Source: Pseudomonadota bacterium (GTDB taxonomy: Bacteria > Pseudomonadota > Alphaproteobacteria > Caulobacterales > Hyphomonadaceae). Taken from it: a stretch of 64,000 bases of DNA. Made by a program: the position numbers and the translations under genes. The notes beneath the pieces were generated by a model, which was not told where the DNA came from, did no database searches, and saw only the letters and a program-made list of their open reading frames with translations. Within the stretch, counting starts at the first letter, position 1; every line of letters starts with the position of its first letter. The stretch is from contig JBCCMB010000001.1 of the NCBI GenBank assembly GCA_039026555.1, forward strand, positions 5,631-69,630. The letters are read 5' to 3'. Of the stretch, positions 25,614-54,400 are shown piece by piece.

Positions 25614-25953
25614 GCAAGTAGGGGAACGCAGATAAGCCTGGCTCGAGAGGGTATGTGCGGCTATCGCGTCTTTGCGCCGTCGATCTTGTCTGCATGGTTT
25701 ACTTATAGGCGCCTGCGATTTGTTTTAACTACGATGCATTTAGCCGTAACGCTCCAGCTACTATCCAAACCGCGTTGGGGCGGGCTTCAACTATGCGAAG
25801 CCCGCCGCCGTCCCGGCTCGCAGGTCCGGCAAGACGGCGGCGGGGTCTTGACGGCGCGGATCCTACTCCGCGCCCGCTCATCATGCGCGGTCCTGGACGC
25901 ACTCCGGGCGCACCCGGCGGTCCCTTAGGATCGCCGGCTCCGGCCCATTTGTG

Positions 25954-26079
25954 GAGCGTGCTGGCCACACGGAAACCGACATTGTTGTTTCGGTTCGTGG
26001 TGGTGTTCCTGTTGCGGTTCGCCGAGCGAAGGTTCTGCGGATTGTTGTTCCAGGAACCACCGCGGAGAACACGACGCGA
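25954..26079 (-). repeat. DGR template repeat (TR), 126 nt
   Basis: Collinear with the terminal 126 nt of four FGE-domain genes. It is AAY-rich (reads NNNPQNLRSANRNRNTTTNRNNN). By hand alignment, all mismatches to VR1, VR3 and VR4 lie at its adenines. The 3' end (GGCCAGCACGCTCCAC) differs from the VR ends (GGCCAGGACGCTTTRA). Confidence 0.85.
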
Positions 26080-26194
26080 GGGGACCGTGCAGGGATGACG
26101 GCCGACCGCACCGAAGCGCGGGCGTGAAGCAGGCGAAACGCGTTCGAGGCTGCAACCATCATCAATATTGAGATTGATCGGAGTCGCCCGGCAG

Positions 26195-26246
26195 AGCAAA
26201 AAAATCGAACCGGCTTCGCCGGTACAAGACGCGGGCTCTCGCCCGC
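26195..26246 (-). terminator. Post-VR1 module: GNRA-loop hairpin plus rho-independent terminator
   Basis: Coding sense: GCGGGC-GAGA-GCCCGC (26231-26246), then ACCGGCGAAGCCGGT (26209-26223) followed by TCGATTTTTTT. Confidence 0.6.
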
Positions 26247-26263
26247 GCTAAAGGAAAAAGGGG

Positions 26264-28648
26264 TCAAAGCGTCCTGGCCACACGGAAACCGACAAGGCTG
26301 CCTCGGTCCGCGGTGGTGCCCCTGAGGCGGTTCGCCGAGCGAAGGCTCTGCGGAATGTGGCTCCAGGAACCACCGCGGAGAACACGACGCGAACATTCTC
26401 CGATTGTCCAAGCAGAGCCGTTCGACGGACCCCCTGAATAACTGGCGTTCCAGCAATCTTGCGTCCATTCCCAGACATTGCCGATCATATCGTGAAGGCC
26501 AAAAGCGTTTGCCTGATATCTGCCAACCAGCGCTGTTTTTTTGCCTACGCCGTCGTCGCAAGTTGAAGTCGTCCAATTACTATCTTCTCGTTTCGCCGTG
26601 ATGTCGGCCGCATTCGAATACGCGCACCCCCCATTCCTATCGTTTCCCCAAGGATAGGCGCTCGTCGTCCCCGCACGCGCCGCATACTCCCATTCCGCCT
26701 CAGACAGAAGGCGATAGGTCTTACCCGTCTTGCGAGACAGCCAACCCGCATAGGCCTGAGCATCGTTCCAATCGACATTGATCACAGGACGCGATCCGCG
26801 ACCCCAGCCTTCATCCCCGCCTGTGCTCGCCGGCCCCGCATCATCGCACGTCCCGTCGGCGACGCATGCGCCCCATTCCGCCCAAGTCACCTCGTATTTG
26901 CCCACCGCGAACTGGTAGTCGATCCGCACAGTCCGGACCGGGCCTTCATCATCGTCGCGGCCTTCCTCCGACGACGGCGAGCCCATCACAAAACGGCCCG
27001 AGGGGATCACGACCATTTCGGGGCCTTGCCCGCCGCCCGAGAGCGCATCGCGGAACACCTGGCCGGGCGTTGAGGGGCGCTCTATCGCTTTGAGTTTCGC
27101 GCGCGCGGCGGCTGCGTTGGCGCCGGATGCGTGGGACGCTAAATACCGCTCATACCCAGCCTTGGTATCCGTGCGCTGCGCCAGCGCCCAGGCTTGCGCC
27201 TCCGCCTCCCGCGCCGCTTGCGCGCGTTGCTTCGCTGCGGCCGCCTCGGCTTCCGCTTTCAGGGCCGCCAGCCGCGTCCGCGCCCGCGCCGCATTCGGAC
27301 CGTTCGGATAGTCGGACAGGAAGCTCTCAATCGCACGGACGGTGTCGGTGCGTTCGGCGACCATCCACGCAGCGTTTTCAGAGATCTCAAATTCTCGCGC
27401 CGCGCGTTCGGCCCGGTCCGCAAACGCGGCGATGTCGTCCAACGCTCCCGTGGCCAGGTCCGGCGCCGTAAGGCCGGCGTCGCTCGCAAAGCTTGCGGCG
27501 GCGGCGATCGTGCCGCGTCCCGCTGCGCCGTCGACGCTGCTGGTGTAGAGGCCGAGACGCTTTAGCGCCGTCTGAACGCGCCGGATCGCTGACGCTCGCG
27601 CGGCGGGGGCGTCCGCAGAGGCCGCTAGCTCTTCGGTTCCGAGCGCAGTTGTTGATGTTTGCGAAGTTGACGACAGGCGATTAAGCGTTTCGAGCGCCTT
27701 GTCGATATTGTCCTTTAGCGTTTGGTCCGTCGTCTGCCGATCAAGCTGTTGCAGCAGCATCGCCGCTCTTTCCGACGACCTCGACGAGATTGGCGTATCA
27801 AGACGGCTGACGACGTTCGCCACGCCCAACTGCTCGTAGTAAACTTGGCTCTCAACACCCCATTCGACAAATTCCAGAATTGCGGATTCGTCCTCATCGC
27901 CATTGATGTTCTCGGCGATTTTTTCGCGCGCCCGCCTTCGAACAGCAGAAATATCAGACGTCAGATCAGAGATCAGCGCGGGGTCTAATCCAGCCACGGT
28001 TTCGCCGGCTGCGGTGGCTGTAGGTGCGCTCGTCGTCGTATCGCGCCAGCCGAAAGGGTCAAACGTCCAAAGGCCGCCGCCTAGACTGACCAAAAGTAGG
28101 GCGACAACAGCGGCGACAACACCGCCAGGACTCGCCTTCGTATCCGCCCCGGGACTACGACTTGGTTTGTCCGCCGGGACCTGTTGGCCGATGTTCAAGC
28201 CGCGGATCAAAACGCCGACATCATTGTCGAAACTGTCCGCGCGCAGCTTGACGCCGTGGCGCATGGAGAGTTCGCGGATGTCTTCGGGCAGCTCGTCCGC
28301 CTCCGGCACGGCGACGCCGTCCAGCAACACCGGGACGACGGGGATGTCGCGTTTCAACGCCGCCGCGATTTCCGCGCGCACGAAATCACGCGGATCGTCC
28401 AAGCGGCGCTTGCCGGTGTCGGGGTCGGCCGCGTTTAGCCAATTACGGCCGATCATGGCGAGGACCATGTCGCACTGGGCGACCGTCATATCGATCTGTT
28501 GCTTGAAGTTCAGCCCGACCGTCATGGAGTCCAGGTCGTAGAAAATGTCGACCTTGGGATCGTCGACTACCTTGGCCAACGCCTCATAAACCGACTTCGT
28601 CTGCCACTGGCTGTCGTCGCGCCTGTAAGAGATGAAGATCTTCGACAT
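26264..28648 (-). CDS. TIR - TM - PG-binding-like/helical repeats - FGE-sulfatase (C-type lectin fold) protein; DGR target 1
   Basis: Start at ATG 28648: MSKIFISYRRDDS (TIR). TM segment VVAAVVALLLVSLGGGLWTF. RRVQTALKRLGLYTSSVDGAAG is PG_binding_1-like. The C-terminal FGE domain has MVVIPSGRFVMGS, VNVDWNDAQAY, LLSEAEWEYAARAG, GLHDMIGNVWEW and RVLRGGSW. Confidence 0.85.
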   Translation of the reverse strand: MSKIFISYRRDDSQWQTKSVYEALAKVVDDPKVDIFYDLDSMTVGLNFKQQIDMTVAQCDMVLAMIGRNWLNAADPDTGKRRLDDPRDFVRAEIAAALKRDIPVVPVLLDGVAVPEADELPEDIRELSMRHGVKLRADSFDNDVGVLIRGLNIGQQVPADKPSRSPGADTKASPGGVVAAVVALLLVSLGGGLWTFDPFGWRDTTTSAPTATAAGETVAGLDPALISDLTSDISAVRRRAREKIAENINGDEDESAILEFVEWGVESQVYYEQLGVANVVSRLDTPISSRSSERAAMLLQQLDRQTTDQTLKDNIDKALETLNRLSSTSQTSTTALGTEELAASADAPAARASAIRRVQTALKRLGLYTSSVDGAAGRGTIAAAASFASDAGLTAPDLATGALDDIAAFADRAERAAREFEISENAAWMVAERTDTVRAIESFLSDYPNGPNAARARTRLAALKAEAEAAAAKQRAQAAREAEAQAWALAQRTDTKAGYERYLASHASGANAAAARAKLKAIERPSTPGQVFRDALSGGGQGPEMVVIPSGRFVMGSPSSEEGRDDDEGPVRTVRIDYQFAVGKYEVTWAEWGACVADGTCDDAGPASTGGDEGWGRGSRPVINVDWNDAQAYAGWLSRKTGKTYRLLSEAEWEYAARAGTTSAYPWGNDRNGGCAYSNAADITAKREDSNWTTSTCDDGVGKKTALVGRYQANAFGLHDMIGNVWEWTQDCWNASYSGGPSNGSAWTIGECSRRVLRGGSWSHIPQSLRSANRLRGTTADRGSLVGFRVARTL
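26267..26392 (-). repeat. DGR variable repeat VR1
   Basis: Last 42 codons of the gene. I count 15 mismatches to the TR, all at TR adenines, for example AAC AAC AAT to AGC CAC ATT. Confidence 0.85.
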
Positions 28649-28702
28649 ACGTCGTCCCCGCCGAACTCTAGAGAACACGCTAGTCCATCCATGAACGCAA
28701 TG

Positions 28703-29773
28703 TCACCCTAGAATGCGTTTGCCGTACTTTCGTTCGCCTAGAACTGCATTTCGCAGCTTGCGCGTGTGGGCGAAGTTGGCATGAGCCTCCCAGGCCTCGA
28801 TGCGGACGTGAGCGTCAGCCTCTGTCGTGGTTCCGGCGCTCAATTGGTCGCGGAGGCTGCGCAGGCGGTGACGGAAGCGCCGGATAGTCGCCTCGGGCAA
28901 GCGACGTACGCCTTTAGGCGCCAAGACATAGCACAGGAACTCCGCGGGCTCCGCTGTCGGCGCGACCCAAGTCTTCTGCGTATGAAGCTTTAACCGTCGC
29001 CCCTCCAGGAACCGAGCGATCCGATCCCGCCAATCTGCAAGGATTGCAGGATCGTCGTGAAACAATGCGAAATCGTCGACATATCGCACATAGGGCGCGC
29101 GGAGCACTTCAGTACAAAAATGGTCCAGCGGGTCTAGATAGAGATTGGCGAAAAATTGGCTGGTGAGATTTCCGATCGGCAGGCCGCGCCGGCGGGCGAC
29201 TGGCGCGAATAGATCGTCGCCTGGGAAATGTAGCTCCACCAGCTCTTGGCGGTTTGAAGCGTCGATGATGCAGTCCAGTAGGCCGAGCGTGCGCTCGCAT
29301 GCGAGACGCCGACGCAAATCGCGCTTGAGGATGGCGTGGTCGATGGCTGGGAAATAACGAAAGATGTCGCAGCGCAAGACGTAAGCGCAGCGATCACGAT
29401 AGCGCTCATACGCCTCCACCGCCCGGTGTGCGCCCTTGCCCCGCCGGTTGGCGAAGGTGTGAGCGATGAAGCCGCGTTCGAAAATTGGTTCTACGACGGC
29501 GCATACGGCGTGGTGAACCACGCGGTCGCGAAACGGGGCCGCGGAAACGATACGGTGCTTGGGATCGAAAAGTTCGATCTTCACATACCGGCCGGGGCGG
29601 TACTCGCCGCTTAACAGCGCGCGCTCAAGCGCCAAGCATTCCTTCTCTCGATCAGCCAGGAAAGCGGCGGCGCCAGGTTTCGTCTTTTTGCCGAGAGCTG
29701 CGCGGCGCGTCGCCGATACAAGCGCGCTGAAATTAGCGATCTGCGGACAAAGATTACGTTCACGCTTGGGCAT
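28703..29773 (-). CDS. DGR-type reverse transcriptase
   Basis: DPKHRIVSAAPFRDRVVHHAV, RRGLPIGNLTSQFFANLYL (the DGR hallmark I/LGxxxSQ) and YVRYVDDFALF (YxDD). 356 aa. No maturase or endonuclease domain and no intron-like flanks. Confidence 0.9.
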   Translation of the reverse strand: MPKRERNLCPQIANFSALVSATRRAALGKKTKPGAAAFLADREKECLALERALLSGEYRPGRYVKIELFDPKHRIVSAAPFRDRVVHHAVCAVVEPIFERGFIAHTFANRRGKGAHRAVEAYERYRDRCAYVLRCDIFRYFPAIDHAILKRDLRRRLACERTLGLLDCIIDASNRQELVELHFPGDDLFAPVARRRGLPIGNLTSQFFANLYLDPLDHFCTEVLRAPYVRYVDDFALFHDDPAILADWRDRIARFLEGRRLKLHTQKTWVAPTAEPAEFLCYVLAPKGVRRLPEATIRRFRHRLRSLRDQLSAGTTTEADAHVRIEAWEAHANFAHTRKLRNAVLGERKYGKRILG

Positions 29774-30143
29774 GACGCGCGGACGACGCTTTTAGCCAAC
29801 CTCCGATCAGACGTCCGACCTTGTCAATTTCACGAGCAGCGAATTCATAGCGGCGCGGGTCTAAATGGCGGAGATCATAGGCCAAGCGGAAGAGGTGGCG
29901 CAGTTTCTCCAGGCCGAGATTGGCGGCTTTCAGAGCTGGCGCGCGCTCGCGCGAATAGGTCGCGTCGATCAGGCGTTCCAGCACGTCTAGCGCGGTTCCC
30001 TGAATACGGTCGCCGAGGAGGAATTTCTGGCTGCGTGGAAACTTTTCGACCGCGGGGATCAGCCAGCGTAGGAAGCCGTTCATCGCTTCGAGCGCAGGAC
30101 CGATTTTCCGTTGCCCGGATTCATATTTCAGCGCCCCAAACAT
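29760..30143 (-). CDS. avd: Avd-like accessory variability determinant (four-helix-bundle protein)
   Basis: 127 aa, basic and helical (FPRSQKFLLGDRIQGTALDVLERLIDA...). Its 3' end overlaps the RT start by 14 nt. Confidence 0.75.
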   Translation of the reverse strand: MFGALKYESGQRKIGPALEAMNGFLRWLIPAVEKFPRSQKFLLGDRIQGTALDVLERLIDATYSRERAPALKAANLGLEKLRHLFRLAYDLRHLDPRRYEFAAREIDKVGRLIGGWLKASSARHAQA

Positions 30144-30221
30144 GGCGTTATGAAGCCGCGAGTCGCCGATTGCGTCGAGCCCCTATGCGTCGCGAATGTC
30201 CCCGAACATTGGCGGGGACAC

Positions 30222-30551: not shown

Positions 30552-30772
30552 GCAGCGCTGTCCGCCAGTCGCCGCTCCCTGTCGGCCGCATAGGCGAGCG
30601 CCGCGCGAATATCCGCTATTTCGATTTCAGGAAAATCTCCGACGATTTCTTCCGGCGTCATTCCGGCCGAAAGATATTCAAGGATATCGTAGACCGTAAT
30701 CCGCAAATTCCGGATGCAGGGCTTGCCTGAGCGTTTGTCCGCTTCGAAGGTAATAACGTCTCGCCAAGACAT
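30548..30772 (-). CDS. DUF433 domain putative antitoxin
   Basis: GKPCIRNLRITVYDILEYLSAGMTPEEIVGDFPEIEIADIRAALAYA is the DUF433 signature. Confidence 0.75.
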   Translation of the reverse strand: MSWRDVITFEADKRSGKPCIRNLRITVYDILEYLSAGMTPEEIVGDFPEIEIADIRAALAYAADRERRLADSAA

Positions 30773-30901: not shown

Positions 30902-30918
30902 TATTAAGGAAAAAGGGC

Positions 30919-33858
30919 TTAAAGCGTCCTGGCCACACGGAAACCGACAAGGTTGAACCGGTCGCCTGTGTCGTTCCTGTCGCGGAACGCCGAGCGGAGG
31001 AGCTGCGGATCGTTGAGCCAGGAACCGCCGCGGAGAACACGACGCGAGCAGTCACCGGCCGTGTGCGGAGCACCGTCGGGAGGCTGAGAAGCAAGCGTGT
31101 CACGATAGCAATCCTCCACCCATTCCCAGACATTGCCATGCATGTCGTAAACGCCGAATGCGTTAGGCTTAAAGCTGCCGATGGGTGCGGTCTCCAAGTA
31201 ATTGCCTTCGCAATCCACGACATCCCACGACAAATTGTATTTTTGTTGTGTGTCGGGATTTGCGAGGTTGGCGTAGGTGCATATCTCTGCGGCGTCGTCC
31301 CCCCAGGAATACGCCGTTTGCGTCCCCGCCCTAGCGGCATATTCCCATTCGGCTTCCGTTAACAGGCGATAGGGGCCGCCGCCCGCGTCCTTCGAAATCA
31401 TCCAATTAAGCCAGCGCACATACCCCTGCGCGTCGTTCCAGTTCAGATTGATGGCGGGATAGGTTCCCGTCCCGAAGCCTGCATCGCTGAGCGGCGCGCA
31501 GCCGATTATTGCTTCGCCATCCTCGGCCGCTAACAAGGCCGCTTGATCTGTGAAGGCGACGCATCGCGCCCATTCCTGATGAGTGATCTCGAACTGGCCG
31601 ACGGCGAAACGTTGGATCTCGATCTCTTTCTGCGGCCCCTCATCGCGAAAGCGGCCGGTTTCGTCGTCAGGTGATCCCATGACGAAACTGCCTGCGGGAA
31701 TAACGACCATTTCCGGGCATTGGGCCTCGGCGGCGCACTCTCGGAATGTCGCGCGAGCGTCAAGATCGGCTAAATCCTGAGATGACAGCGCGTAGCGCGC
31801 ATAATCGAAACGCTGCACCCATTCTCGCTTCAGTTCGAACTCAAACGCGTATCCCATACTGCCAAGCACGACCAAAAGGCCCAACGCGCCGACCGTTGCG
31901 CCAAGAAGCCGCCGGCGAGTCTTAGACCGGTTCTCCGACTTCTGCGCAGCAGACAAATAGTTCTGCTCGACCTCCCCAAGCTGGGGGCCATAGCGGGGAT
32001 GGTCCGCCAGCGCCGAGGCCGCCTTCAGCCGTTCGCCGAAATGGGTGAGGTATTCGCCTCTACGCTCCTGGCGCGCCCAGATCGCGGCGGCCTGTTTCAA
32101 CCCGCGCAAGGCTTCCAGCCGGGCTTTTTCGGGCTCCAGCCAAGCCTCCAGGCGCGGCCATTTGCGGAACAAGGCTTCATGCGCGACTTCGACGGTCCCG
32201 CCTTCGTCTCCGCTTTCCTTACGCACCACCAGCCGCCAGCGGTCGAAGCGCTCCAACAACTCCCGCTCTTCCGGCCCGAACGCGCGCCACGCCGCCACGC
32301 GCCGGATCGCTTCGCCGTCGTCATTCACATCCGCCAGCGGCGGCACGAAGACGGCTGCGCCGAGCTTTGTCTGGTGCGCCTTCGCCCCGCCTGCAGGCAG
32401 GGCTGCGTCGCGCTGTTCCGGATCGATCCCGCACAAAGCGCGCTCGGCCGCGTCCTCGATCAGGCCCGAAAGCCCCCCCATGGAGGCGTAGTCCGCATGG
32501 GCGAGCTTGCCCGACACGGCGAACTGGTCCCACAACCTTTGCAGCGCGAAGGCGAGCAGCGGCAGCGCATCCTTGCCCGGCGCATCCTCCATCAGCGCGT
32601 CGGTGAGCGCGGGATCCACCTCCACGCCATAGCGCGCCGCCGGGTCCTCGGCGACGTCGTCGAAGCGGAAGACGGGCAGCGTGCGCAAATCATATCCGCG
32701 CGCCTCCAACCCCTGAAAACGCGGATGCGCCTGCAGCTCCGGAAAGCTGTCTGTCCGGATGGTGAAGGCGAGCCGGATTGGCGAGGCCGCCTCCATAGCG
32801 GCGCGCAGATAATCAGCGAGCGCCTGGCCGTTCTCCCCGTCGGCCCGGGCGATCTCCTCCGCCTGGTCGACGCTGATGAGGAGGGTCGCGCCCGGGCGAT
32901 TGGCGCGCGTGCGCAGGCGGGCGGCTTGATCCTCCAGTGTTGCAACTAGGGCGGCGCGCCCGTCCTCCGTCAGCTCGGCCTTGTCGTCGCGCGGGGCCTG
33001 GCGCCAAGCCTCCAGCAGCGTTCGCTTCAGCGCGCCATGGGCTTCGCGCGTTCCGAAATCCGCCAGCGTCCCAGTGATCGCCTCCGCGAAGTTAAGCAGA
33101 GGGTCCGCCCCCGGCCGGAAGGCGCGCAAGGGCAGCCAGGCCGGCGCTTCTCGCCGCAAACGCGGAATGATCCCAGCCTTCAAGAGCGAGGATTTCCCGG
33201 CGCCAGACGCGCCGAGAATCACCAGGGGACGTTTGTCCGCGGCCGCCCGCATGGCGCGTAATTCTTCAAGCGCTTCGGCGATCTCCCGCGAGCGGCCGAA
33301 GAACAGCGCGGCGTCCGCATCGTCATCGCCAAAACTCTGCAGCCCTGGAAAGGGCGAGGGCCGCGCTGCGCGGTCTATCTCGAACGCCGCTGGATCGAGG
33401 CCCACAGCCGACAGCGCCCCCGCCTCGCGTAGGCCCCGTTTCAGCGTCTCAGCGCGGTCTTCGTCGCGAGCGAGGCTCAAGCCCTCAGGCGTCAGGAAGG
33501 GCGTCAGATCCAGCCCCTGGGCCTCGGCGCGCACGCGGCCCAGCTCGGCGCGCTGTTTCTCGTCCAGCGTCGCCTCTTCGCCCAGCAGGAAAAGCGGAAT
33601 AATCCGCTTGCCCATATACCAGGCGGCCTTGAACTCGGACGGGCATTCGCCTGAGGCGAGCCAATTGGGCGTTACCAGGCACAAGACCACGCGGCAGGCG
33701 CCCGCGTTCGCTCTCAGCGCATCGGCCCACGCTTCGCCGCCGGAAATGCTCGAATGGTCGATAAAAAGATCGGTAAAGCCTTCGGCTCTCAGCCAGGCCT
33801 CAAGCCGGCTGGCCAAATCGTCATCCCGACTGGAATGGGAAATGAAAATCGTCGCCAC
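30919..33858 (-). CDS. TIR - STAND P-loop NTPase - TM - FGE-sulfatase (C-type lectin fold) protein; DGR target 2
   Basis: MATIFISHSSRDDD (TIR). FFGRSREI...RPLVILGASGAGKSSLLKAG (Walker A) and TLLISVDQAEE (Walker B), followed by a long helical region. TM segment LLGATVGALGLLVVLGSMGYAF preceded by KTRRR. The FGE domain has MVVIPAGSFVMGS, INLNWNDAQGY, LLTEAEWEYAARAG and GVYDMHGNVWEW. Confidence 0.85.
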   Translation of the reverse strand: MATIFISHSSRDDDLASRLEAWLRAEGFTDLFIDHSSISGGEAWADALRANAGACRVVLCLVTPNWLASGECPSEFKAAWYMGKRIIPLFLLGEEATLDEKQRAELGRVRAEAQGLDLTPFLTPEGLSLARDEDRAETLKRGLREAGALSAVGLDPAAFEIDRAARPSPFPGLQSFGDDDADAALFFGRSREIAEALEELRAMRAAADKRPLVILGASGAGKSSLLKAGIIPRLRREAPAWLPLRAFRPGADPLLNFAEAITGTLADFGTREAHGALKRTLLEAWRQAPRDDKAELTEDGRAALVATLEDQAARLRTRANRPGATLLISVDQAEEIARADGENGQALADYLRAAMEAASPIRLAFTIRTDSFPELQAHPRFQGLEARGYDLRTLPVFRFDDVAEDPAARYGVEVDPALTDALMEDAPGKDALPLLAFALQRLWDQFAVSGKLAHADYASMGGLSGLIEDAAERALCGIDPEQRDAALPAGGAKAHQTKLGAAVFVPPLADVNDDGEAIRRVAAWRAFGPEERELLERFDRWRLVVRKESGDEGGTVEVAHEALFRKWPRLEAWLEPEKARLEALRGLKQAAAIWARQERRGEYLTHFGERLKAASALADHPRYGPQLGEVEQNYLSAAQKSENRSKTRRRLLGATVGALGLLVVLGSMGYAFEFELKREWVQRFDYARYALSSQDLADLDARATFRECAAEAQCPEMVVIPAGSFVMGSPDDETGRFRDEGPQKEIEIQRFAVGQFEITHQEWARCVAFTDQAALLAAEDGEAIIGCAPLSDAGFGTGTYPAINLNWNDAQGYVRWLNWMISKDAGGGPYRLLTEAEWEYAARAGTQTAYSWGDDAAEICTYANLANPDTQQKYNLSWDVVDCEGNYLETAPIGSFKPNAFGVYDMHGNVWEWVEDCYRDTLASQPPDGAPHTAGDCSRRVLRGGSWLNDPQLLRSAFRDRNDTGDRFNLVGFRVARTL
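30922..31047 (-). repeat. DGR variable repeat VR2 (divergent)
   Basis: Same length and flanks as the other VRs. By my count ~16 mismatches lie at TR adenines and 6 at non-adenine positions (GGT to GGC, CTT to CTC, and within ACC ACC ACG to GAC ACA GGC). Confidence 0.65.
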
Positions 33859-35695: not shown

Positions 35696-35697
35696 GA

Positions 35698-44339: not shown

Positions 44340-45704
44340 GTGGGATGGCTTCTTAGAGCTTTGGTCTGGTCTGTGGCGCTTGTTTGCTGCGCAGGGTTGG
44401 TCGGATGGTTTCTCATCGCCGGGCATAAACATGTTGCGGGTCTAGACGGGCCGGGGCGGCAATTAGAGACCGCGGTGATCTCCGCTGATGGTAGATACGT
44501 CGCTATTTTGCTCAATGATGGGGCGGCGGATGTTCAAACGATTGAGGGGGAGACGCTCGGGCTTATTCGCGGGCACGACGCGCCGTTGGCGGCGGCGCAT
44601 TTTTCGCCCGACGGCGAGATACTGATCACGATTGACGACGCGGGCAGTGTCCGCCGAACGCGGCTGGAGGGGCTCTTTTTTCGAGAAAGGGGGCATGGCG
44701 CCGATATGTCGGCGGCGGTCGAGCAGGCGGTTTGGGGCGATGCGTTGGCCGCACCGGCGGCGCTATTATGGGAGACAAGCGCGATCCATGCGCCCTGGAA
44801 GGCGTCGTCGCAGATTATGGATGCAGACACGCGCGCGCCTGTTTTGCCAAAGGGCGCAGTCCCGCCGCCGAGGAGCATGTTTCGAGATTGCGCAGATTGC
44901 CCGGAAATGCTGGTTGTTCCGCCGGGCGCATTCCTTATGGGCTCTCCTGAAGATGAAGAGGGGCGTGATCCCGATGAGGGCCCGCAGCGAGACGTGCGGA
45001 TCGATTATCCTTTCGCCGCGGCGCGGTTTGAGACGACGCTCGCGGAGTTTCAACGCTTCATGAAAGAGACTGGCCATGCGCCGGCGGGCGGGTGCGTCGC
45101 CGATTCCAACGGCGATGGGTTGTTGTCCGATGAGCCTGAGGCTAATTGGTCAAACACGGGGTTTGAACAAAGCGACGCCCAGCCCGCAGCCTGCGTTTCG
45201 TGGAACGACGCGCAGGCCTATGTGCATTGGCTGTCGCGCAAAACGGGCGAGACGTATCGTCTGCTTTCGGAAGCGGAATGGGAGTATGCGGCTCGGGCTG
45301 GGACGACGAGCGCCTATTTCTGGGGCTCAAGCGCAGATGCCGGCTGCGCTTATATGAACGGAGCGGACGCGACGGCGAAGCGCTCCTATCCTGGCTGGAC
45401 GACCGTGAGTTGCGATGACGGCTATTTGAATACGTCGCCCGTAGGCTCGTTCAACGCGAATGCATTTGGTCTTTACGACATGACGGGCAATGTTTCGGAG
45501 TGGACTGAGGATTGCTGGAATGAGAGCTATTCCGGTGCGCCGATAAATGGCTCGGCGTGGATAAGCGGCGAGTGCTCGCGTCGTGTTCTCCGCGGTGGTT
45601 CCTGGAGCGGCTATCCGCGGAGCCTTCGCTCGGCGCTCCGCGGCTGGAACTCCACCTCGGACCGGTACGACCATGTCGGTTTCCGTGTGGCCAGGACGCT
45701 TTAA
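44340..45704 (+). CDS. N-terminal TM anchor - short WD40-like segment - FGE-sulfatase (C-type lectin fold) protein; DGR target 3
   Basis: GTG start. TM segment LVWSVALVCCAGLVGWFLIAG. The FGE domain has MLVVPPGAFLMGS, VSWNDAQAYVHWLSRKTGETYRLLSEAEWEYAARAG, GLYDMTGNVSEW and RVLRGGSW. Confidence 0.8.
   Translation: MGWLLRALVWSVALVCCAGLVGWFLIAGHKHVAGLDGPGRQLETAVISADGRYVAILLNDGAADVQTIEGETLGLIRGHDAPLAAAHFSPDGEILITIDDAGSVRRTRLEGLFFRERGHGADMSAAVEQAVWGDALAAPAALLWETSAIHAPWKASSQIMDADTRAPVLPKGAVPPPRSMFRDCADCPEMLVVPPGAFLMGSPEDEEGRDPDEGPQRDVRIDYPFAAARFETTLAEFQRFMKETGHAPAGGCVADSNGDGLLSDEPEANWSNTGFEQSDAQPAACVSWNDAQAYVHWLSRKTGETYRLLSEAEWEYAARAGTTSAYFWGSSADAGCAYMNGADATAKRSYPGWTTVSCDDGYLNTSPVGSFNANAFGLYDMTGNVSEWTEDCWNESYSGAPINGSAWISGECSRRVLRGGSWSGYPRSLRSALRGWNSTSDRYDHVGFRVARTL
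45576..45701 (+). repeat. DGR variable repeat VR3
   Basis: I count 18 mismatches to the TR, all at TR adenines. It is on the opposite strand and ~19.5 kb from the TR. Confidence 0.85.
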
Positions 45705-48412: not shown

Positions 48413-51400
48413 ATGGCCGATGGAGCATCAGCAGCAGAGTTCGAGGACGAAGAGGTCGCGCGCCTTTTGGGCGACGAGCTGGAGCGGCTTTTTGATCGCC
48501 TAGACGAGGCGGGGCTTTTGGTGGGGCCGCGTGAGCGGTCGGCGGCTTACGCCATCGCGTTTCAATGGCTTGGCGGAACGCGCGCGCCGCCCGCCCGCGC
48601 ATCTGAGGCGATGTGGCGGCTTCGCCCGATGCTGGCGCCCGTTCTCGCCCGAACGCAAAATGATCGGGCAGTTTTCTTCCATGTGTTCGACACAAATTAC
48701 GAACCTCAGCCTATTAACCCGCCCGATGAGCCGGACCCACCCTTAAAGGGTTGGCCTTGGCGGCGGATCGTGCTGGGTATCGCGGCCACGATCATGCTCA
48801 GCGGATTGGCAAGCGTTGTCTATCATCGAACTCAGAATGAGGCCGACGTGGTCGTCGTCGAGGACGGCCCAAGCGGCGTCGCCAAAATCGAGCCAATTCA
48901 GACGGATGGCGATGCGCCGGTCGCGACTGAGAGGAGAGCCGCGCCATTGGCGGACCAAACGGCGAATGATTTTCTCAACCGCATTCGCGATGCCGCAACG
49001 GCAATCGATGGCGACGTCTACAGGTACGGCCTTGCTCCCACGCTGGAGGAAGTCGCCAAGGAGCTGATCGACGACTCCAGGTCGTTGCGAAACGCGACGC
49101 CGGCGGATGGTGGAGGCGTCGCGCTATCGTCTCAAACGACTATTTTAGCCGGCGGCGTATTAAGTGGCGCGGCGTTCTCAAATGATGAAACACGCATCCT
49201 CTCATGGAGCTCGGACAACACCGTCAGACTCTGGGACGCGCAGACCGGAGACCAGATCGGGCCGTCCATGCAACATAACTTCATCGTCCGGGGCGCGGTG
49301 TTCTCAAAGGATGACACACGCATCCTCTCATGGAGTGTGGACAACACCGTCAGGCTCTGGGACGCACAGACCGGAGACCAGATCGGACCGTCCATGCAGC
49401 ATGAGGACGCCGTCGGGGGCGCGGCGTTCTCAAATGATGAAACACGCATCCTCTCATGGAGCGACGACGCCACTGTCAGGCTTTGGAACGCACAGACCGG
49501 AAACCAGATCGGGACACTTATGGGACATGGACGCGACGTCTATGGCGCGGCGTTCTCAAAGGATGAGACGCGCATCCTCTCATGGAGCCGGGACGCCACC
49601 GTCAGGCTCTGGGACGCGCAGACCGGAGACCAGATCGGACCGTCCCTGCAACACGAGCACGTCGTCCTGGGCGCGGCGTTTTCAAAAGATGAGACACGCA
49701 TCCTCTCATGGAGCGACGACGCCACCGTGCGGCTTTGGGACGCCAACACAGGCGATCAGATCGGACGGCCAATGGTACATAAGGGCAGGGTATCTGGCGC
49801 AGCGCTCTCAAAGGACGAAAGCCGCATTCTGACTTGGAGTGAAGATGGAAGGATAAGCTCTTGGAGCGACCCGGGGGCCTCTTTAGACGCGGAGTGGAGC
49901 GCCGACGCCTATGCGCGCCGGCTGAGCGACCTTACCGGCTTGCCGGGCGGGGCGCCGTTATCGATTTTTGCGAACAATGGCGCGCTCTGGGCGCGCCTGG
50001 CCCATGCGCTGTCGCGGATGGAGCAGCCGGGTCGAGAGACGTCCTTGTCCCAACTTCGCGCCGACGCTGCCAAATCTCTGGAGGACGTCCAACCCTCGCG
50101 CGTAGATCGGATCGCCGAAAAGCTGCGCGCCCTAGACGCCCCGCCGACGGATCGCGCCGCGCTCTTTGACGCCGTTTTCGCCCTCGATGAAGCAGCCGCG
50201 TCCGATGCGCCCAGCATAGATCAAAACATCGGTTTTGGTCCGGCCTCCGACGTGCTGCGCGCCGCCGCGATCGCCGGCTTGGATGCGGCGCGATATGGCG
50301 ATCCGCCGTGGCTGAACCTTAAGCCGCCGGCGCGTCCGGCCGCTTCGCCCGCGCCGGCCTGGCTGTGGCCTCTTTCTGTTTTGATACCGCTGGCGTTCGC
50401 GTTTTGGGTGGCGTCGTCGCTCGCTTTGAAGCGCGCCTATCTTCGCCGCCGCGCGCCGCGCGTCCCGCCGCTTCATACCAAATTCGTCAGCGAGGCCGGC
50501 CGGAACGTCGCCTATCAAGCGGGTCTCTTCCAGCGCGCCGCGCAGCAATTGCTCACGCGAACGCCCCGCGCCAGCGCCGCAATCGACATTCCTGCGACGG
50601 TCTCGGCGACGCTTGCGGAAGGCGGCGAGATTATCGCGCCGGTTTTTAAGGATGCGCGTCTGCGTCCCGAATATCTGGTGCTGATTGAAGCGAACGCCGC
50701 CGGCGACCAGGAGGCGCGCCGGTTGAGGCGGATGGCCGAGCGTCTAGAGGACATCGTCGATTTAGACGTCTTTTACTATCAGACCGATCCTGGCGAGTTG
50801 GAGAGTGAGGACGGCGCGAACCGCATCACAATTGAACAAGCCCAGTCGCGCTATCCGGACCATCGATTGATCATTCTCGGGACGGGCGGAGGCTTTCTTG
50901 ATGCCGTGGATTTGTCTCTTCGTCCCCCAGCGCAGAAGCTTTTCTATTGGGAGCGGCGCGCGCTGCTGACGCCTATTCCTCTCGCGGAGTGGAGCAAAGA
51001 GGATTACGCGCTGGCCAAAGCGCTAGAGATGCCCATCGGGCGTGCGACGCCTGAGGGTCTGCTCACGCTCGCCGAACTGCTCGGGTTAGAAGGCGCTGAA
51101 GCTGGGACCGAACCCAACCCGAGCGGAGACGGCTTGGCGCGCCCGCTGCCGGACTTGTTTCGCAATCGCTCGCAGCGCTTTTTGTTCAACGCGCCGCCCG
51201 ACCAAGCAACAATAGCCGATCTTCTACGTGAATTGCGCAATTATCTAGATCCGTCGGCGTTCGATTGGTTCGCGTCATTAGCGGTTTATCCGAATGTTCA
51301 ATGGGATTTGACGCTGCTTCTGGGAGTCAAGCTGCCCCGTGCGCCGGGAGAGGACTTTGCCACTAATCCGCTTTATGATGAACGTCGGCTGGCCGCGATC

Positions 51401-54400
51401 ACGCAGTTGCCTTGGCTGCGGTCGGGCCGCATGCCCAACTGGCTCAGACGCACTTTAATTAGCAAGCTGTCGCCCGAGCGGCGCGAGGAGATCAAGGCCG
51501 TTCTGGACGAGCTGCTTGAAAATGCGCGACCTAAGAACAAACACGAAGTCGACGCGATCGAACTCAGTATCCGTCGCGATAAGCCTAAAGACACAACACG
51601 AACTGACCGTTTGCTAGACGACGAAGTCCTGCTCGACTTTCTCGCCTCCGGCCAACGAGAGGATTTTGCGTTGGCGCGGTTCTCACGGTTCGCTGAATTG
51701 TTCGATCGCGGGTTTTGGGATCGGATAGGCGGGCCCGAAGGCGTTGCGGGCGCAGCAGCGCTAGCCTTCTCATTGACCGCGTTTGTCGTTACCCCGCGCG
51801 CCGCAGACGGCGCTGTTGTGACCGGTGCTTATGCGCCGCTATGGCTTTTGGGCGTCGGGGGGCTGCTGGTCTTTGCATTCTGGAAGCCCGACATTGCGGC
51901 GGCTCGTCTCGGCGCCGCGTTCGAGCGCGCCGCGCCTGGCGCTTTGGCTTTGTTCTTGGCGACGCTGGGCCCGCTCGCGGCGGCGTACGTCAGCGCTCGA
52001 TCAGGTGTAGATCCGCTGTCTATAGTCGCGACGTCGAATACCACGTCATTTTGGATCTGGGGCGCGTATATCGCTCAATTTGGTCTTCTCGTCGGCGGGC
52101 TTTGGGTCTCACGTTCGATCTGCACGCGCTTTGGCCTTCGCATCTACGTCGCTGCATCGCTGCCTGATTGGGCCGAGTTGTCGATCAAAGCTGCGGGGCT
52201 GGGCGCGTTCGCTTTGGCGATAACAGCGCTCGCCGGAAATGTTCCCGGCCTAGCCGAGTTTTCGCGCTCGCCACTTGTTGACCCAGACCAATTGGACGCG
52301 TCGGCGATGCTTTGGCTCGGCGGTTGTCTCGCCGTATTTTTGTTGGGCTGGCTGGCTGCGCAGTTCGCGCCGGATATGCAGACGATCCGGGCGGCGAGCG
52401 CCGGCCGCAGCGCAAAGCCCGCACTATTCGCGATTGTCGCACGCGCCCTCGCCGCACTTGTTCCCGTTGTAGCGTCATTGGCGGCCTATTGGCATGTGTC
52501 CTTGACCTCGTCGCGATCAGACCTCGCTATGGATGAGACGGTTTTCCGACCCGCTCTGACCGCAATATCGCCGGACGGCGAGACGCTCGCAGCGGTCGAC
52601 ATCGCCGGGCGGCTTGTCGTTTCGCATGCCAACGCCGCCGCGCCTTACCGCGCCGACCCGACGCAATTGAGCGACGCGCGCGCGCCGTTCACGGCGTTGG
52701 CGGTTGGCGGCGAAGGTGAAGCCGTCATCGCTTTCGCAGATGCAGACGGACGAGTCTTTGAGGCGACGCCGTATCGCGACGCCGTCGCGCCCGTCGTTGA
52801 TCCGTCGGAAAATTCCGGTCGGGCGCGTAGCGACGGCGCGCCGGCCCAACTCGCGTTCGGCCCCAACGCGCAACTCTGGACGGCGATAGAGACAGCGGAA
52901 GTCGGTGTTCGCGTTATCACCGCAGGCCGAGCTTGGAACGACGCGGAGCAGAGCGGCCCGCCACAAGCACTTATTGCTGTGAGTGGAGGCCGAGCGGCCT
53001 TAGCGACACTGGACGGCCGTATTCGTTTGGTGACGCCCACAAGCGACGGTCTCGCCGTTCAGCTGATTGGCGCCAGCGGGTCTCTCGCGCCGTCGCGTCA
53101 GCTCAGTTTCGATCCGGACACGATGACACTTCGCGCTGGTCTGATCGATGGCGAGATATGGGAAGCAAATTTGGTCGACAGCGGCGCTTCGTTCGAATTT
53201 GTAGGCCGCGCCAACGCCATGGCGCTCGGGCCGGCGCCTCTCTACACGACATCTTCTGAGATCTCACCATTTGTTGGGCCCGCCACGCCCTCGGGCAGGC
53301 GGCTCGCGCTTGTAATTGGAAACGCCGAGTACGAGCAATTACCAGACCTGAAGAATCCCTTGAACGATGCGCGCCTCATTTCTGAGTCGTTGGAAAGTTT
53401 AGGTTTCGAAGTATCCCGGCTACAAAACGCGTCGCGCAACGAAATGCTTCAAGCGGTGCGTCAACATGCTCAGAATGTCGCGGCCGCCGGGCGTAATTCT
53501 GTGAGTTTTGTTTATTTTGGGGGACAAGGCGTTGAGATAGACGGTCAAAACTATTTGATTCCAACTGACTTGAGTGCGCACGAGCCAGCCACCGTCCGAA
53601 GCGATTCACTACTTCTCAATGATGTAATAAGTGAAATCGATACGGTCGGGCCAGCGGCTAGCCTTTTCGTACTGGATACCTGCCGAAACGATCCATTTTC
53701 TGGCCAACGCGGATCAATCGGCCAAGGTTTTGCTCCCGCGAACGCGCCGACAAACACCTTCATCGCCTTTGCGGTCGAACCAGGAGGGATAGCGCTCGAC
53801 AGTTTGGATGCGAGGGACAATAACAGTCCTTACACCTCGACGTTGGCGGAGACCTTGCTTATTCCGGGGTTATCTGTGCAGGATGCGTTTGCCGAGGTTC
53901 GCCGCAAGGTGACGGCTGCGACATCAGGCGAACAAGTGCCATGGATATCGGACCGTTTAGCGAGCGAATTTTGTTTCGCTGGCTGCGAGGTGCAAACGCC
54001 CGAGCCGGCCGCCATCCCCTCGGCGCTCCCACCTCGCCTCTATATCCAGATCGCTTCAGAGGCGCAGCGCGAAGACGCGTTACGTGTTCGCGAGGCGTTG
54101 TCGCCGCTCGACGTAGACGTGCCGGAGTTTGAGGTGCGTAGCGCGAGCATGCCGGACCGGGGGGAGTTTCGCTATTTCCGGCGCTCGGAAGAGGGGCTGG
54201 CGCGTGAAACGTACAACGCGCTGCCGGATCTCGACGCCGGCGGTGCCGCCTTTGTCTACGTGTCCGGCTATGAGGACTCCGAGGACATCCGAGACAATCA
54301 TTTCGAGCTTTGGCTGCCCGGTCCTACGATGTTGGAGGACGATTTCCAGCCGGGTTTCGAGTTTCGCGATGTGATTGAGGGCGCGCCGGAGATCGCGACA

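What the first reader, a model, noticed from the sequence alone, without database searches (positions are those of the whole stretch)
25954..30143. Diversity-generating retroelement core with an unusual avd-RT-target-TR gene order
The RT (28703-29773, minus) has the DGR hallmarks LPIGNLTSQ and YVDD and is preceded by an overlapping 127-aa Avd-like four-helix-bundle gene. 25954-26079 is a 126-nt copy of the last 126 nt of the neighbouring gene 26264-28648. In my hand alignment all 15 internal mismatches fall where the 25954-26079 copy has A on the coding strand. Examples are AAC AAC AAT versus AGC CAC ATT and AAC CGC AAC versus CTC CGC GGC. That copy is AAY-rich (NNNPQNLRSANRNRNTTTNRNNN; I count 28 adenines in the variable stretch), which is the signature of a TR and adenine-directed mutagenic homing. 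The layout is odd: the TR does not abut the RT or avd. It sits 2.6 kb away, downstream of a whole target gene and downstream of that gene's terminator hairpin, so TR transcription needs read-through or its own promoter.
Basis: partly seen in the sequence, partly recalled or inferred. Interest (0 to 1): 0.95.

Follow-up and report, generated by a model that had tools for sequence, protein, structure and literature searches.

The report
Four-target DGR on a conjugative element
This is a genuine diversity-generating retroelement whose single template repeat rewrites the tips of four immune-like sensor proteins (not one), and its "odd" gene order is a recurring minor variant of a known layout rather than something new.

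Summary
TR 25955-26079 (minus strand) matches the 3' end of gene 26264-28678 over 125 nt. There are 16 mismatches, and 15 fall at TR adenines (P = 6e-9).

The RT is DGR-type. Its best solved-structure match is Bordetella bRT (E = 1.6e-41, against 9e-18 for a group II intron RT). The Avd passes the NCBIfam equivalog cut-off.

- 30923-31047 (-)
- 45576-45700 (+)
- 55007-55131 (+)

All four lie at the C-termini of FGE-type lectin domains fused to TIR, nSTAND1, or WD40 plus caspase modules. The whole set sits between a relaxase and a TraG gene of an integrative conjugative element.

The gene order is not unique. Among 31 related loci with a detectable TR:
- 19 have avd-RT-TR.
- 7 have target-TR-avd-RT.
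- 4 have avd-RT-target-TR like the window, as do the two closest relatives.

The TR carries its own cis-acting RNA elements: a TR-bracketing helix and a post-TR stem-loop. Both are strongly supported by covariation and match the Bordetella "cPRT Stop" and Avd-binding elements. That explains how the TR can sit away from the RT.

Verdict: a real, well-formed DGR and a new member of a known kind. Interest is moderate.

The parts
25955..26079 (-). Template repeat (TR), 125 nt with 30 adenines; encodes ...NNNPQNLRSANRNRNTTTNRNNN...
   Evidence: It is the only copy with A at the variable positions and C at the IMH marker (25960).
26082..26091 (-). Upstream strand of the TR-bracketing helix (analogue of the avd strand of the Bordetella 'cPRT Stop' duplex)
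   Evidence: Alignment columns 24-33 pair with 249-258. 9 of 10 pairs form in the window; 9 of the 10 pairs show compensatory changes across 29 loci. The single-sequence fold also finds it.
25908..25944 (-). Stem-loop immediately 3' of the TR (analogue of the Avd-binding stem-loop)
   Evidence: helices 2-4 are 91-100% paired, and 10 of 12 pairs show compensatory changes. One search agrees.
25894..25900 (-). GCGTCC strand predicted to pair with the TR 3' end (GCACGC), followed by an invariant A (25894); candidate primer strand and priming adenosine
   Evidence: 84% of cells paired and 7 compensatory cells, which is modest support. The priming role is inferred by analogy with Sp A56 of BPP-1.
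25884..25893 (-). Downstream strand of the TR-bracketing helix; overlaps the conserved CATGATGA block (25878-25885)
25785..25877 (-). Remainder of the structured non-coding RNA downstream of the TR (three further hairpins)
   Evidence: 321-nt fold, z = -4.07. The GGCGCC..GTCTTG..GAC..GGCGCC hairpin is partly conserved in relatives. The 3' boundary is not defined.
26268..26392 (-). VR1
   Evidence: 16 mismatches to the TR, 15 at A.
26264..28678 (-). Target gene 1: TIR_2 + (PG_binding-like) + C-terminal FGE-sulfatase (C-type-lectin fold). The true start is probably the ATG at 28648.
26230..26247 (-). GC-rich hairpin with GAGA loop, about 20 nt after VR1 (DGR target-recognition hairpin type)
   Evidence: Feature defined in PMC3240598. 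Conserved after VR2 and VR3; VR4 has a different stem with a GCAA loop.
26209..26223 (-). Terminator-like hairpin followed by a T-run
28703..29773 (-). DGR reverse transcriptase (IGNLTSQ and YVDD motifs)
   Evidence: Best PDB hit is 8ub7 (bRT), E = 1.6e-41.
29760..30143 (-). Avd accessory protein
   Evidence: PF22296, 63.7 bits. NF033474, 102.4 bits against a cut-off of 80.
30923..31047 (-). VR2
   Evidence: 23 mismatches, 16 at A, P = 5e-6.
30919..33858 (-). Target gene 2: TIR_2 + nSTAND1 NTPase + FGE-sulfatase
45576..45700 (+). VR3
   Evidence: 19 mismatches, 18 at A.
44340..45704 (+). Target gene 3: unassigned N-terminus + FGE-sulfatase
   Evidence: NCBI calls a 409-aa product with a later start.
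55007..55131 (+). VR4
   Evidence: 15 mismatches, 14 at A.
48413..55135 (+). Target gene 4: 2,240 aa, WD40 beta-propellers + caspase (Peptidase_C14) + FGE-sulfatase

Best explanation
This is a complete diversity-generating retroelement carried as cargo on an integrative conjugative element of a proteobacterial MAG.

**Components**
- avd, RT and target gene 1 form one co-directional block.
- The TR follows target 1 as a self-contained RNA module. The order is: upstream helix strand, TR, stem-loop, primer-like strand with an invariant A, downstream helix strand, and further hairpins.

**Proposed mechanism**
1. The TR RNA is made, most likely by read-through from the avd-RT-target1 transcript. 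A private promoter in the 115-nt spacer is the less likely alternative.
2. The RNA folds so that the two flanking strands clamp the TR.
3. It binds Avd-RT.
4. It is reverse-transcribed by cis-priming, with misincorporation opposite adenines.
5. The cDNA replaces the last ~100 nt of four genes. Each target site is marked by the same IMH sequence (GGCCAGGACGCT) and a downstream GC-rich hairpin.

**Outcome**
Up to about 10^15-10^17 variants are possible for each of four FGE/C-type-lectin ligand-binding tips. These tips are fused to TIR, STAND, caspase and WD40 modules, so they are presumed invader sensors.

**Shown versus inferred**
- Shown: the repeats and their adenine bias, the protein identities, the RNA covariation, and the recurrence of the layout.
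- Inferred: transcription route, priming site, current activity, and immune function.
For: **Repeats**
- One TR and four VRs. 63 of 73 mismatches fall at TR adenines. The one universal non-A difference is the IMH marker.
- 26 of 30 TR adenines vary in at least one VR; 88 of 95 non-A positions never vary.
- The AAY-rich design has no route to stop codons, and the theoretical repertoire is about 1e17.

**Proteins**
- RT: bRT (8ub7) E = 1.6e-41 against GsI-IIC 9e-18. It keeps K29, R74, the IGxxxSQ motif and YVDD.
- Avd: NCBIfam equivalog, 102 bits against a cut-off of 80.
- All four VRs end FGE-sulfatase domains. TvpA is among the PDB hits.

**Target-site features**
- GC-rich four-base-loop hairpins lie after the VRs.

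**TR RNA elements**
- RNAalifold found the bracketing helix and the post-TR stem-loop unprompted.
- 94.8% of cells are paired, against 29-46% when the partners are slid. The covariation score is 0.613, against at most 0.148 for the slid controls. 0 of 500 shuffles reach the observed values.
- The same fold appears in the single-sequence MFE, z = -4.07.
- These elements correspond to the BPP-1 cPRT Stop duplex and Avd-binding stem-loop, which Handa et al. report in 207 of 278 Avd-containing DGRs.

**Layout**
- The window's order recurs in L007, L019, L025 and L041. L001 and L002 are consistent with it.
- The TR is on the RT strand in all 31 related loci, across at least three arrangements. This favours co-transcription.

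**Context**
- tRNA, integrase, relaxase, TraG and VirB11 genes mark an ICE.
Against: - There is no direct evidence of current activity. The only database copy of target 3 is the same MAG, and no population variants were found.
- VR2 has 6 extra non-A differences. It may no longer be rewritten by the present TR.
- A terminator-like hairpin with a T-run lies between target 1 and the TR, and no sigma-70-like promoter was found in the spacer. How the TR is transcribed is therefore unresolved.
- The primer:template helix has only modest support: one of six pairs is usually unpaired, and a control slid by -2 columns still pairs 67% of cells.
- An immune role for the targets has never been shown experimentally for this class (PMC10907252).
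Confidence: 0.88

Rival explanations
1. A fossil DGR. The element once diversified these genes but is now inactive, and the TR survives only as a relic at the end of the operon.
For: - VR2 has drifted at 6 non-A positions.
- The closest relative, L001, has its TR cut after 26 nt, so decay does occur in this lineage.
- No variant copies were found in the databases.
Against: - RT, Avd and all four target ORFs are intact, and the RT keeps its catalytic motifs.
- VR1, VR3 and VR4 differ from the TR only at adenines plus the IMH marker, with no drift.
- The TR flanking helices are intact: 9 of 10 pairs form in the window.
Confidence: 0.15
2. The TR is an independent, trans-acting small-RNA gene with its own promoter in the ~115-nt spacer after the terminator. 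In this reading it is not a read-through product of the avd-RT-target1 operon.
For: - A terminator-like hairpin with a T-run lies upstream of the TR here, and a T-run is also visible upstream of the TR in L001, L025 and L035.
- The TR module keeps the same flanks wherever it sits.
- A conserved GATGA(T/C)G(G/T)T block is present in the spacer of the window, L001 and L008.
- Wu et al. note that TR and RT can be on different strands in some DGRs.
Against: - No sigma-70-like promoter was found. That scan is weak for Alphaproteobacteria.
- The TR is co-directional with avd-RT in 31 of 31 related loci despite at least three rearrangements. A free-standing gene would not need that.
Confidence: 0.4
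3. An ordinary duplicated gene fragment or paralogue family. The 125-nt copies would be conserved C-terminal coding sequence shared by paralogues, and the "TR" a pseudogene remnant, with no retroelement involved.
For: The four targets are paralogous over the whole FGE domain (70-83% identity in repeat families D2-D7). A gene-less copy could therefore be a fragment.
Against: - Mismatches are confined to adenines of one copy only (P = 6e-9 to 5e-6).
- Identity jumps to about 100% at non-A positions exactly within the 125 nt, and falls outside that stretch.
- The fragment is flanked by a covarying RNA structure shared with 28 other DGR loci.
- An RT and an Avd lie adjacent.
Confidence: 0.01
4. 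The layout is an assembly artefact: a MAG contig mis-joined at repeats, with the true order being avd-RT-TR.
For: The source is a MAG contig, and repeated VRs can break or mis-join assemblies. The Logan contig L053 ends inside target 1.
Against: - An independent Logan assembly has DUF433-DUF5615-avd-RT-target1 in the same order.
- Six independent relatives show or imply RT-target-TR.
- The RT stop is only 25 nt from the target 1 start, leaving no room for a TR.
Confidence: 0.02

Closest known systems
Bordetella phage BPP-1 DGR (mtd-avd-TR-brt), the prototype
   Same: - RT is homologous to bRT (E = 1.6e-41).
- Avd is present.
- Adenine-specific TR-to-VR transfer, with an IMH/IMH* marker.
- GC-rich four-base-loop hairpin after each VR.
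- The TR RNA is clamped by an upstream:downstream duplex, with a stem-loop just 3' of the TR.
   Different: - Order is avd-RT-target-TR instead of target-avd-TR-RT.
- Four targets on both strands, spanning 29 kb, instead of one.
- Targets are FGE-type lectin folds on intracellular-looking signalling proteins, not a phage tail fibre.
- Carried on an ICE, not a phage.
- The candidate priming A directly abuts the stop-duplex strand.
DGR cassette architecture B2 (avd-RT-TR) of Wu et al. 2018, NAR 46:11 (PMC5758913)
   Same: The relative order of avd, RT and TR on one strand. 19 of 31 relatives of this RT have exactly B2, with the TR roughly 40-90 nt after the RT.
   Different: Here a 2.4-kb target gene sits between RT and TR. 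I could not check whether that sub-variant is among the 48 published variants, because the supplements are not held.
DGRs that diversify STAND/TIR/peptidase 'antigen sensors' (Dore et al. 2024, PNAS, PMC10907252; clade 5D)
   Same: Several targets, each with a single C-terminal CLec/FGE domain behind nSTAND1 or NACHT NTPases. Some have N-terminal TIR effectors, and peptidases lie nearby.
   Different: - The host is a proteobacterial MAG, whose closest RT relatives are Hyphomonadaceae and Caulobacterales MAGs, not a Thiohalocapsa-type multicellular bacterium.
- The element is on an ICE.
- Target 1 has a TIR domain but no NTPase.
- Placement of the RT in clade 5D was not tested.
iSTAND / MoxR ternary conflict systems with DGR-diversified FGS domains (Kaur, Burroughs, Iyer, Aravind 2020, eLife, PMC7159879)
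   Same: The block at 44340-55135 contains an FGE protein, a TIR-iSTAND protein, a MoxR-like AAA_5 ATPase and a caspase-WD40-FGE protein. The FGS domain is always C-terminal and linked to a DGR.
   Different: Pfam detected no vWA domain in the FGE-bearing components. The published DGR links are mostly cyanobacterial or gammaproteobacterial.
Treponema denticola TvpA (PDB 2y3c), a DGR variable protein with an FGE-type C-type-lectin fold
   Same: The C-terminal FGE-type domain carries the VR. It is a sequence hit, E = 4e-10.
   Different: TvpA is a surface lipoprotein whose DGR uses an HRDC accessory gene (architecture C). Here the accessory gene is avd, and the targets carry TIR, STAND or caspase modules.

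Membership tests
Diversity-generating retroelement (DGR) | Reverse transcriptase of the DGR clade (closest to bRT; IGxxxSQ motif in place of the group II QGxxxSP; YxDD) | tested here: met
   8ub7 bRT E = 1.6e-41 against group II GsI-IIC 9e-18 and retron-type RTs ~1e-7. The aligned motif is GLPIGNLTSQ/GIPIGSLTSQ, and YVDD is present. No phylogenetic tree was built.
Diversity-generating retroelement (DGR) | TR/VR repeat pair whose mismatches fall almost only at TR adenines | tested here: met
   15/16, 16/23, 18/19 and 14/15 mismatches at A. P = 6e-9 for VR1 and 5e-6 for VR2.
Diversity-generating retroelement (DGR) | Accessory variability determinant (Avd) or another accessory gene | tested here: met
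   NF033474 DivGenRetAVD, 102.4 bits (cut-off 80). PF22296.
Diversity-generating retroelement (DGR) | VR at the 3' end of a target ORF, within a C-type-lectin/FGE (or Ig) fold | tested here: met
   in all four targets the FGE-sulfatase match runs to within 2-3 residues of the C-terminus. TvpA, PvdO and FGE structures are hit.
Diversity-generating retroelement (DGR) | IMH at the VR 3' end that differs from IMH* in the TR, and a GC-rich hairpin with a four-base GRNA loop 4-34 bp downstream of the VR | tested here: met
   all VRs have GGCCAGGACGCT and the TR has GGCCAGCACGCT; 6-7 bp GC stems with GAGA (VR1, VR3) or GCAA (VR2, VR4) loops about 20-25 nt after the VR. GCAA fits GNRA but not strictly GRNA.
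Diversity-generating retroelement (DGR) | Cis-acting RNA around the TR (upstream:downstream 'cPRT Stop' duplex and an Avd-binding stem-loop 3' of the TR) | tested here: met
   the covariation score is 0.613, against at most 0.148 for the slid controls, and 19 of 22 pairs show compensatory changes. Binding to Avd-RT is inferred only.
Diversity-generating retroelement (DGR) | Ongoing mutagenic retrohoming (VR heterogeneity in a population) | not testable with these tools
   Only one database copy exists, and no reads are available.
Cassette architecture B2 (avd-RT-TR; Wu et al. 2018) | Core order avd, RT, TR on one strand | tested here: met
   30143>29760 avd, 29773>28703 RT, 26079>25955 TR, all on the minus strand.
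Cassette architecture B2 (avd-RT-TR; Wu et al. 2018) | TR directly follows RT, as in the 19 class-1 relatives | tested here: not met
   Target gene 1 (2.4 kb) intervenes, and the TR lies 2,624 nt after the RT stop. The same is true in L007, L019, L025 and L041.
STAND-NTPase 'antigen sensor' DGR targets (Dore et al. 2024, clade 5D) | Targets with a central STAND NTPase and a single C-terminal CLec domain, often two per locus | tested here: inconclusive
   Target 2 meets it (nSTAND1, 241 bits). Targets 1, 3 and 4 have no NTPase domain in Pfam. RT clade membership was not tested.
iSTAND ternary conflict system (Kaur et al. 2020) | iSTAND protein + MoxR-like AAA+ ATPase + vWA component carrying the effector or FGS domain | tested here: inconclusive
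   iSTAND 29.7 bits (cut-off 24) with an N-terminal TIR; AAA_5 40 bits. No vWA domain was detected in 44340-45704 or 48413-55135.

The most novel reading that the evidence does not exclude
The TR with its flanking RNA scaffold could be a portable cassette. It would travel with a target gene (a "target-TR" module) and recombine freely with the "avd-RT" module.

In this window the cassette lets one retroelement, riding on a conjugative element, act as a shared diversifier for a whole island of unrelated immune-type sensors (TIR-only, TIR-STAND, iSTAND/MoxR-associated and caspase-WD40). That would make the island a horizontally transferable, anticipatory receptor repertoire. Its layout leaves no repeat within 1 kb of the RT, so it would escape the largest published DGR survey.
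Probability: 0.3. Interest if true: 0.65.

Novelty: new member of a known kind. Interest (0 to 1): 0.42.

Why it matters
**As an example of its class.** This is a clean, complete DGR that hypermutates putative intracellular immune sensors. One TR serves four differently built sensors, and the set sits on a mobile conjugative element. That makes it a compact candidate for testing experimentally whether DGR-diversified TIR, STAND and caspase proteins really act as anticipatory antiviral receptors. That hypothesis was proposed in 2020-2024 and is still untested.

**For how TRs work.** The comparison across 31 loci shows that the TR plus its RNA scaffold behaves as a module. It occupies at least three positions relative to avd-RT while keeping its structure and its strand. 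This extends the Bordetella RNP model to this clade.

**For detection pipelines.** No repeat lies within 1 kb of this RT: 1,150 nt, 2,311 nt and 2,624 nt are the nearest distances. The rule used in the largest DGR survey (PMC8144416) would therefore skip it, and such layouts may be under-counted.

Tried and rejected
- **Plasmid collection.** Megablast of 25700-34000 found nothing.
- **Rfam.** No family covers the TR-flanking RNA. The only sub-threshold hit was a chance PYLIS_2 match, E = 0.71.
- **Published architecture tables.** I looked for the supplementary tables of Wu 2018 and the 2024 BMC Genomics survey to see whether avd-RT-target-TR is already listed. Neither supplement is held.
- **Population variants of the VRs.**
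  - An exact look-up of the RT found only a 3.7-kb Logan contig that ends inside target 1.
  - A homology search with target 3 found only the same MAG at 100% identity, then nothing above 57%.
  - Activity therefore cannot be judged from the databases.
- **Promoter for the TR.** The sigma-70 consensus scan of 25600-26400 found none. This is uninformative for this host.
- **An alternative helix.** I considered pairing upstream CCTGAAC with downstream GTTCAGG. By eye it fits only a subset of loci, it is mutually exclusive with the well-covarying helix, and RNAalifold did not choose it.
- **Same-strand scan.** My first TR/VR scan was same-strand only and missed VR3 and VR4. I corrected this with a two-strand search.
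- **ORF over the TR.** ORF 25729-26199 (-) overlaps the TR. I regard it as spurious: it is in frame only because the TR copies coding sequence.
Full report
**1. Observation**

On the minus strand, 25955-26079 aligns without gaps to 26268-26392, the last 125 nt before the final base and stop codon of ORF 26264-28678. There are 16 mismatches. Fifteen lie where the 25955-26079 copy has A (A>G 9, A>C 3, A>T 3). The sixteenth is C>G at 25960.

Adenines make up 30 of the 125 bases, so 15 or more of 16 by chance has P = 6.3e-9 (Fisher 2.4e-10). TR adenines sit at codon positions 1 (17), 2 (12) and 3 (1). No adenine-substituted codon can become a stop. The theoretical amino-acid repertoire is about 1e17, or about 7e15 if the two IMH codons are left out.

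**2. More repeats than reported**

A two-strand search with the TR found four VR copies, not one:

| VR | Coordinates | Strand | Mismatches to the TR | At TR adenines |
|---|---|---|---|---|
| VR1 | 26268-26392 | - | 16 | 15 |
| VR2 | 30923-31047 | - | 23 | 16 |
| VR3 | 45576-45700 | + | 19 | 18 |
| VR4 | 55007-55131 | + | 15 | 14 |

- 26 of 30 TR adenines differ in at least one VR, while 88 of 95 non-A positions never differ.
- The single position that differs in all four VRs is the C (TR) / G (VR) at 25960, inside GGCCAG[C/G]ACGCT. This behaves as the IMH*/IMH marker.
- VR2 has six further non-A differences. They cluster in TR codons ACC ACC ACG, plus two synonymous T>C changes. VR2 may be an older or decaying target.

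**3. Proteins**

- **RT (28703-29773).** It matches RVT_1. Among solved structures its best match by far is Bordetella bRT (8ub7, E = 1.6e-41), ahead of the group II intron RT GsI-IIC (9e-18) and retron-type RTs (~1e-7). It aligns without gaps over the first 102 residues. It keeps K29 and R74 and has a conservative V at I76. It also has the GLPIGNLTSQ motif (bRT: GIPIGSLTSQ) and YVDD.
- **Avd (29760-30143).** It overlaps the RT by 14 nt and passes the NCBIfam Avd equivalog cut-off (102.4 against 80).
- **Targets.** All four end in an FGE-sulfatase (C-type-lectin-fold) domain that runs to the C-terminus:

| Target | N-terminal modules |
|---|---|
| 1 | TIR_2 |
| 2 | TIR_2 + nSTAND1 |
| 3 | unassigned, about 185 aa |
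| 4 (2,240 aa) | WD40 propellers + caspase |

  PDB hits of target 1 include PvdO, FGE and the Treponema DGR variable protein TvpA.
- **Neighbours.** These include a TIR-iSTAND protein, a MoxR-like AAA_5 ATPase, a TIR-WD40 protein, a trypsin-like peptidase and a PG_binding protein.
- **Wider context.** The whole set lies between a relaxase (23610-25613) and TraG / VirB11-like genes (58940-62516). A tRNA and an integrase lie at 18615-20005. This is cargo of an integrative conjugative element.

**4. Target-site features**

After VR1, VR2 and VR3 about 70 nt are conserved. They hold a 6-7-bp GC stem with a GAGA or GCAA loop, followed by a CCGGCGAAGCCGG hairpin and a T-run. VR4 has different stems but again a GCAA-looped hairpin and a T-run.

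Guo et al. 2011 showed that such GC-rich hairpins with four-base GRNA loops, 4-34 bp after the VR, are needed for homing in BPP-1 and are common in DGRs (PMC3240598).

**5. Is the gene order unusual?**

Wu et al. 2018 define architecture B2 as avd-RT-TR and list 48 cassette variants. Later surveys list 35-122 patterns.

I fetched 52 loci encoding relatives of this RT at 51-79% identity, mostly alphaproteobacterial MAGs. I scanned them for adenine-biased repeats and for avd. Of 31 loci with a TR:

| Arrangement | Number of loci | Loci |
|---|---|---|
| target-avd-RT-TR, TR roughly 40-90 nt after the RT stop | 19 | - |
| target-TR-avd-RT | 7 | L008, L022, L026, L028, L032, L035, L047 |
| avd-RT-target-TR, as in the window | 4 | L007, L019, L025, L041 |
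| two distant TR copies | 1 | L045 |

The two closest relatives agree with the window:
- **L001 (79% RT identity).** It has RT-target followed by the same spacer and the first 26 nt of a TR, then a break.
- **L002 (77% RT identity).** It has three VR-type copies, all with the G marker. The last ends a gene downstream of the RT, 62 nt from the contig end, so its TR must lie beyond that gene.

An independent Logan assembly reproduces DUF433-DUF5615-avd-RT-target1. The layout is therefore real, inherited, and recurrent at about one locus in seven. It reads as a permutation of two modules, (avd-RT) and (target-TR). The TR lies 185-330 nt after a VR in all 11 loci of the last two classes.

**6. How a distant TR can work**

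A ~150-nt non-coding element is conserved around all these TRs, wherever they sit. I built alignment A1 from 29 loci (the window plus 28 relatives). Each row holds 32 nt upstream of the TR, the last 28 nt of the TR, and the downstream sequence to just past a conserved CATGATGA.

- **RNAalifold prediction.** It predicted, unprompted, a 10-bp helix joining the sequence 2 nt upstream of the TR to a downstream strand. In the window this is 26091-26082 paired with 25893-25884. It also predicted a stem-loop directly 3' of the TR (25944-25908).
- **Pair counts.** 94.8% of cells are paired, against 29-46% when the partners are slid. 19 of 22 pairs show compensatory changes. The covariation score is 0.613, against at most 0.148 for the slid controls. 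0 of 500 shuffles reach the observed values.
- **Single-sequence fold.** The fold of 26100-25780 gives the same helices (z = -4.07).

These match the Bordetella DGR RNA seen by cryo-EM. There an avd:Sp "cPRT Stop" duplex brackets the TR, an Avd-binding stem-loop follows the TR, and a TR:Sp template:primer duplex sits next to the stop duplex. The first two are reported as predictable in 207 of 278 Avd-containing DGRs (Handa et al., bioRxiv 10.1101/2023.10.23.563531).

A third helix has modest support. It pairs the TR 3' end, G-N-A-C-G-C, with G-C-G-T-Y-C, and is followed by an invariant A (25894) that abuts the stop-duplex strand. 84% of cells are paired and 7 cells are compensatory, but one slid control still pairs 67%. 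The TR-specific C at 25960 falls inside this helix. If cDNA synthesis starts just 5' of the helix, as in BPP-1, this C would never be copied. That fits all four VRs keeping G. This step is inference.

**7. Transcription of the TR**

- No sigma-70-like promoter was found in the 115-nt spacer. The scan is weak for this kind of host.
- The terminator-like hairpin has a short stem and an interrupted T-run.
- In all 31 relatives the TR is on the RT strand, despite at least three different arrangements.

I therefore favour read-through or processing from the avd-RT-target1 transcript (about 0.6) over a private promoter (about 0.4). Neither is shown.

**8. Activity**

In favour of recent use: the ORFs and motifs are intact, VR1, VR3 and VR4 show no drift, and the RNA helices are intact. 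Against certainty: VR2 has drifted, and the TR is truncated in L001. No population data exist. The only database copy of target 3 is the same NCBI MAG (Pseudomonadota bacterium, contig 106,383 bp).

**9. Comparison with known systems**

This is a DGR by every defining feature I could test. Its targets fall in the classes described by Kaur et al. 2020 (FGS domains of iSTAND/VMAP-type conflict systems linked to DGRs) and Dore et al. 2024 (clade 5D DGRs with STAND plus CLec targets, some with TIR effectors). The concept and the domain combinations are already published.

What is specific here:
- four differently built sensors share one TR;
- the element is on an ICE;
- the cassette has the avd-RT-target-TR permutation;
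- a DUF433/DUF5615 pair is inserted between target 2 and avd.

Together the last two points leave no repeat within 1 kb of the RT. The detection rule of Roux et al. 2021 would therefore not have picked this locus up.

**10. Verdict**

The "unusual order" is a recurrent minor variant that is explained by the self-contained TR RNA module. I class it as a new member of a known kind, with moderate interest (0.42).

Noticed in passing
window 30923-31047: VR2 has 6 non-A differences from the TR besides the IMH marker. They cluster at TR codons ACC ACC ACG, plus two synonymous T>C changes. The other three VRs have none. VR2 may date from an earlier TR version, or it may be a target that is no longer rewritten.
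   Followed up: partly
window 30222-30772 (-): A DUF433 / DUF5615 (PIN-like, toxin-antitoxin-type) gene pair sits between target 2 and avd. Logan contig L053 has the same order. It pushes VR2 to 1,150 nt from the RT, so no repeat lies within 1 kb of the RT.
   Followed up: partly
window 18615-25613 and 58940-62516: tRNA (18615-18688), tyrosine integrase, S26 peptidase, DUF3363 relaxase, TraG coupling protein and a VirB11-like ATPase are all present. The DGR island is cargo of an integrative conjugative element next to a tRNA gene.
   Followed up: partly
window 34679-37178: A PhyH-family dioxygenase (34679-35695, -) and a LuxR-type autoinducer-binding regulator (36450-37178, -) lie inside the island between targets 2 and 3. 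Any link to the DGR is unknown.
   Followed up: no
window 38875-44218 (-): Three large minus-strand genes lie here: one of 633 aa with no family, a trypsin-like peptidase of 622 aa, and one of 480 aa with a C-terminal PG_binding_1 domain. They resemble the adaptor and effector partners described for ternary conflict systems.
   Followed up: no
L001 10128-11300: In the closest relative (RT 79% identical), the TR sits in the same place after the downstream target but is cut after 26 nt. An ORF on the opposite strand and tRNA-like sequence follow. This looks like a decayed or truncated copy at an island edge.
   Followed up: partly
L045 5987-6112 and 17347-17472: Two near-identical TR copies lie 4 kb upstream and 6 kb downstream of the RT, and the avd-like hit is at 15939-16274 rather than next to the RT. 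This could be a duplicated or rearranged DGR.
   Followed up: no
L007, L019, L025, L041, L047 (alignment A1 columns ~187-240): These loci have an extra 30-80-nt hairpin between the post-TR stem-loop and the GCGTYCAGG motif. The window does not, and its TR flanks most resemble L008 (target-TR-avd-RT class). The avd-RT-target-TR order may therefore have arisen more than once.
   Followed up: partly
window 26140-26160 (-), L001, L008: A conserved GATGA(T/C)G(G/T)T block lies in the spacer between the terminator-like hairpin and the TR. Its function is unknown; it could be a promoter element or an RNA motif.
   Followed up: no
window 25729-26199 (-): A 156-aa ORF spans the TR. It is open only because the TR copies coding sequence, and it is probably not a gene.
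   Followed up: partly
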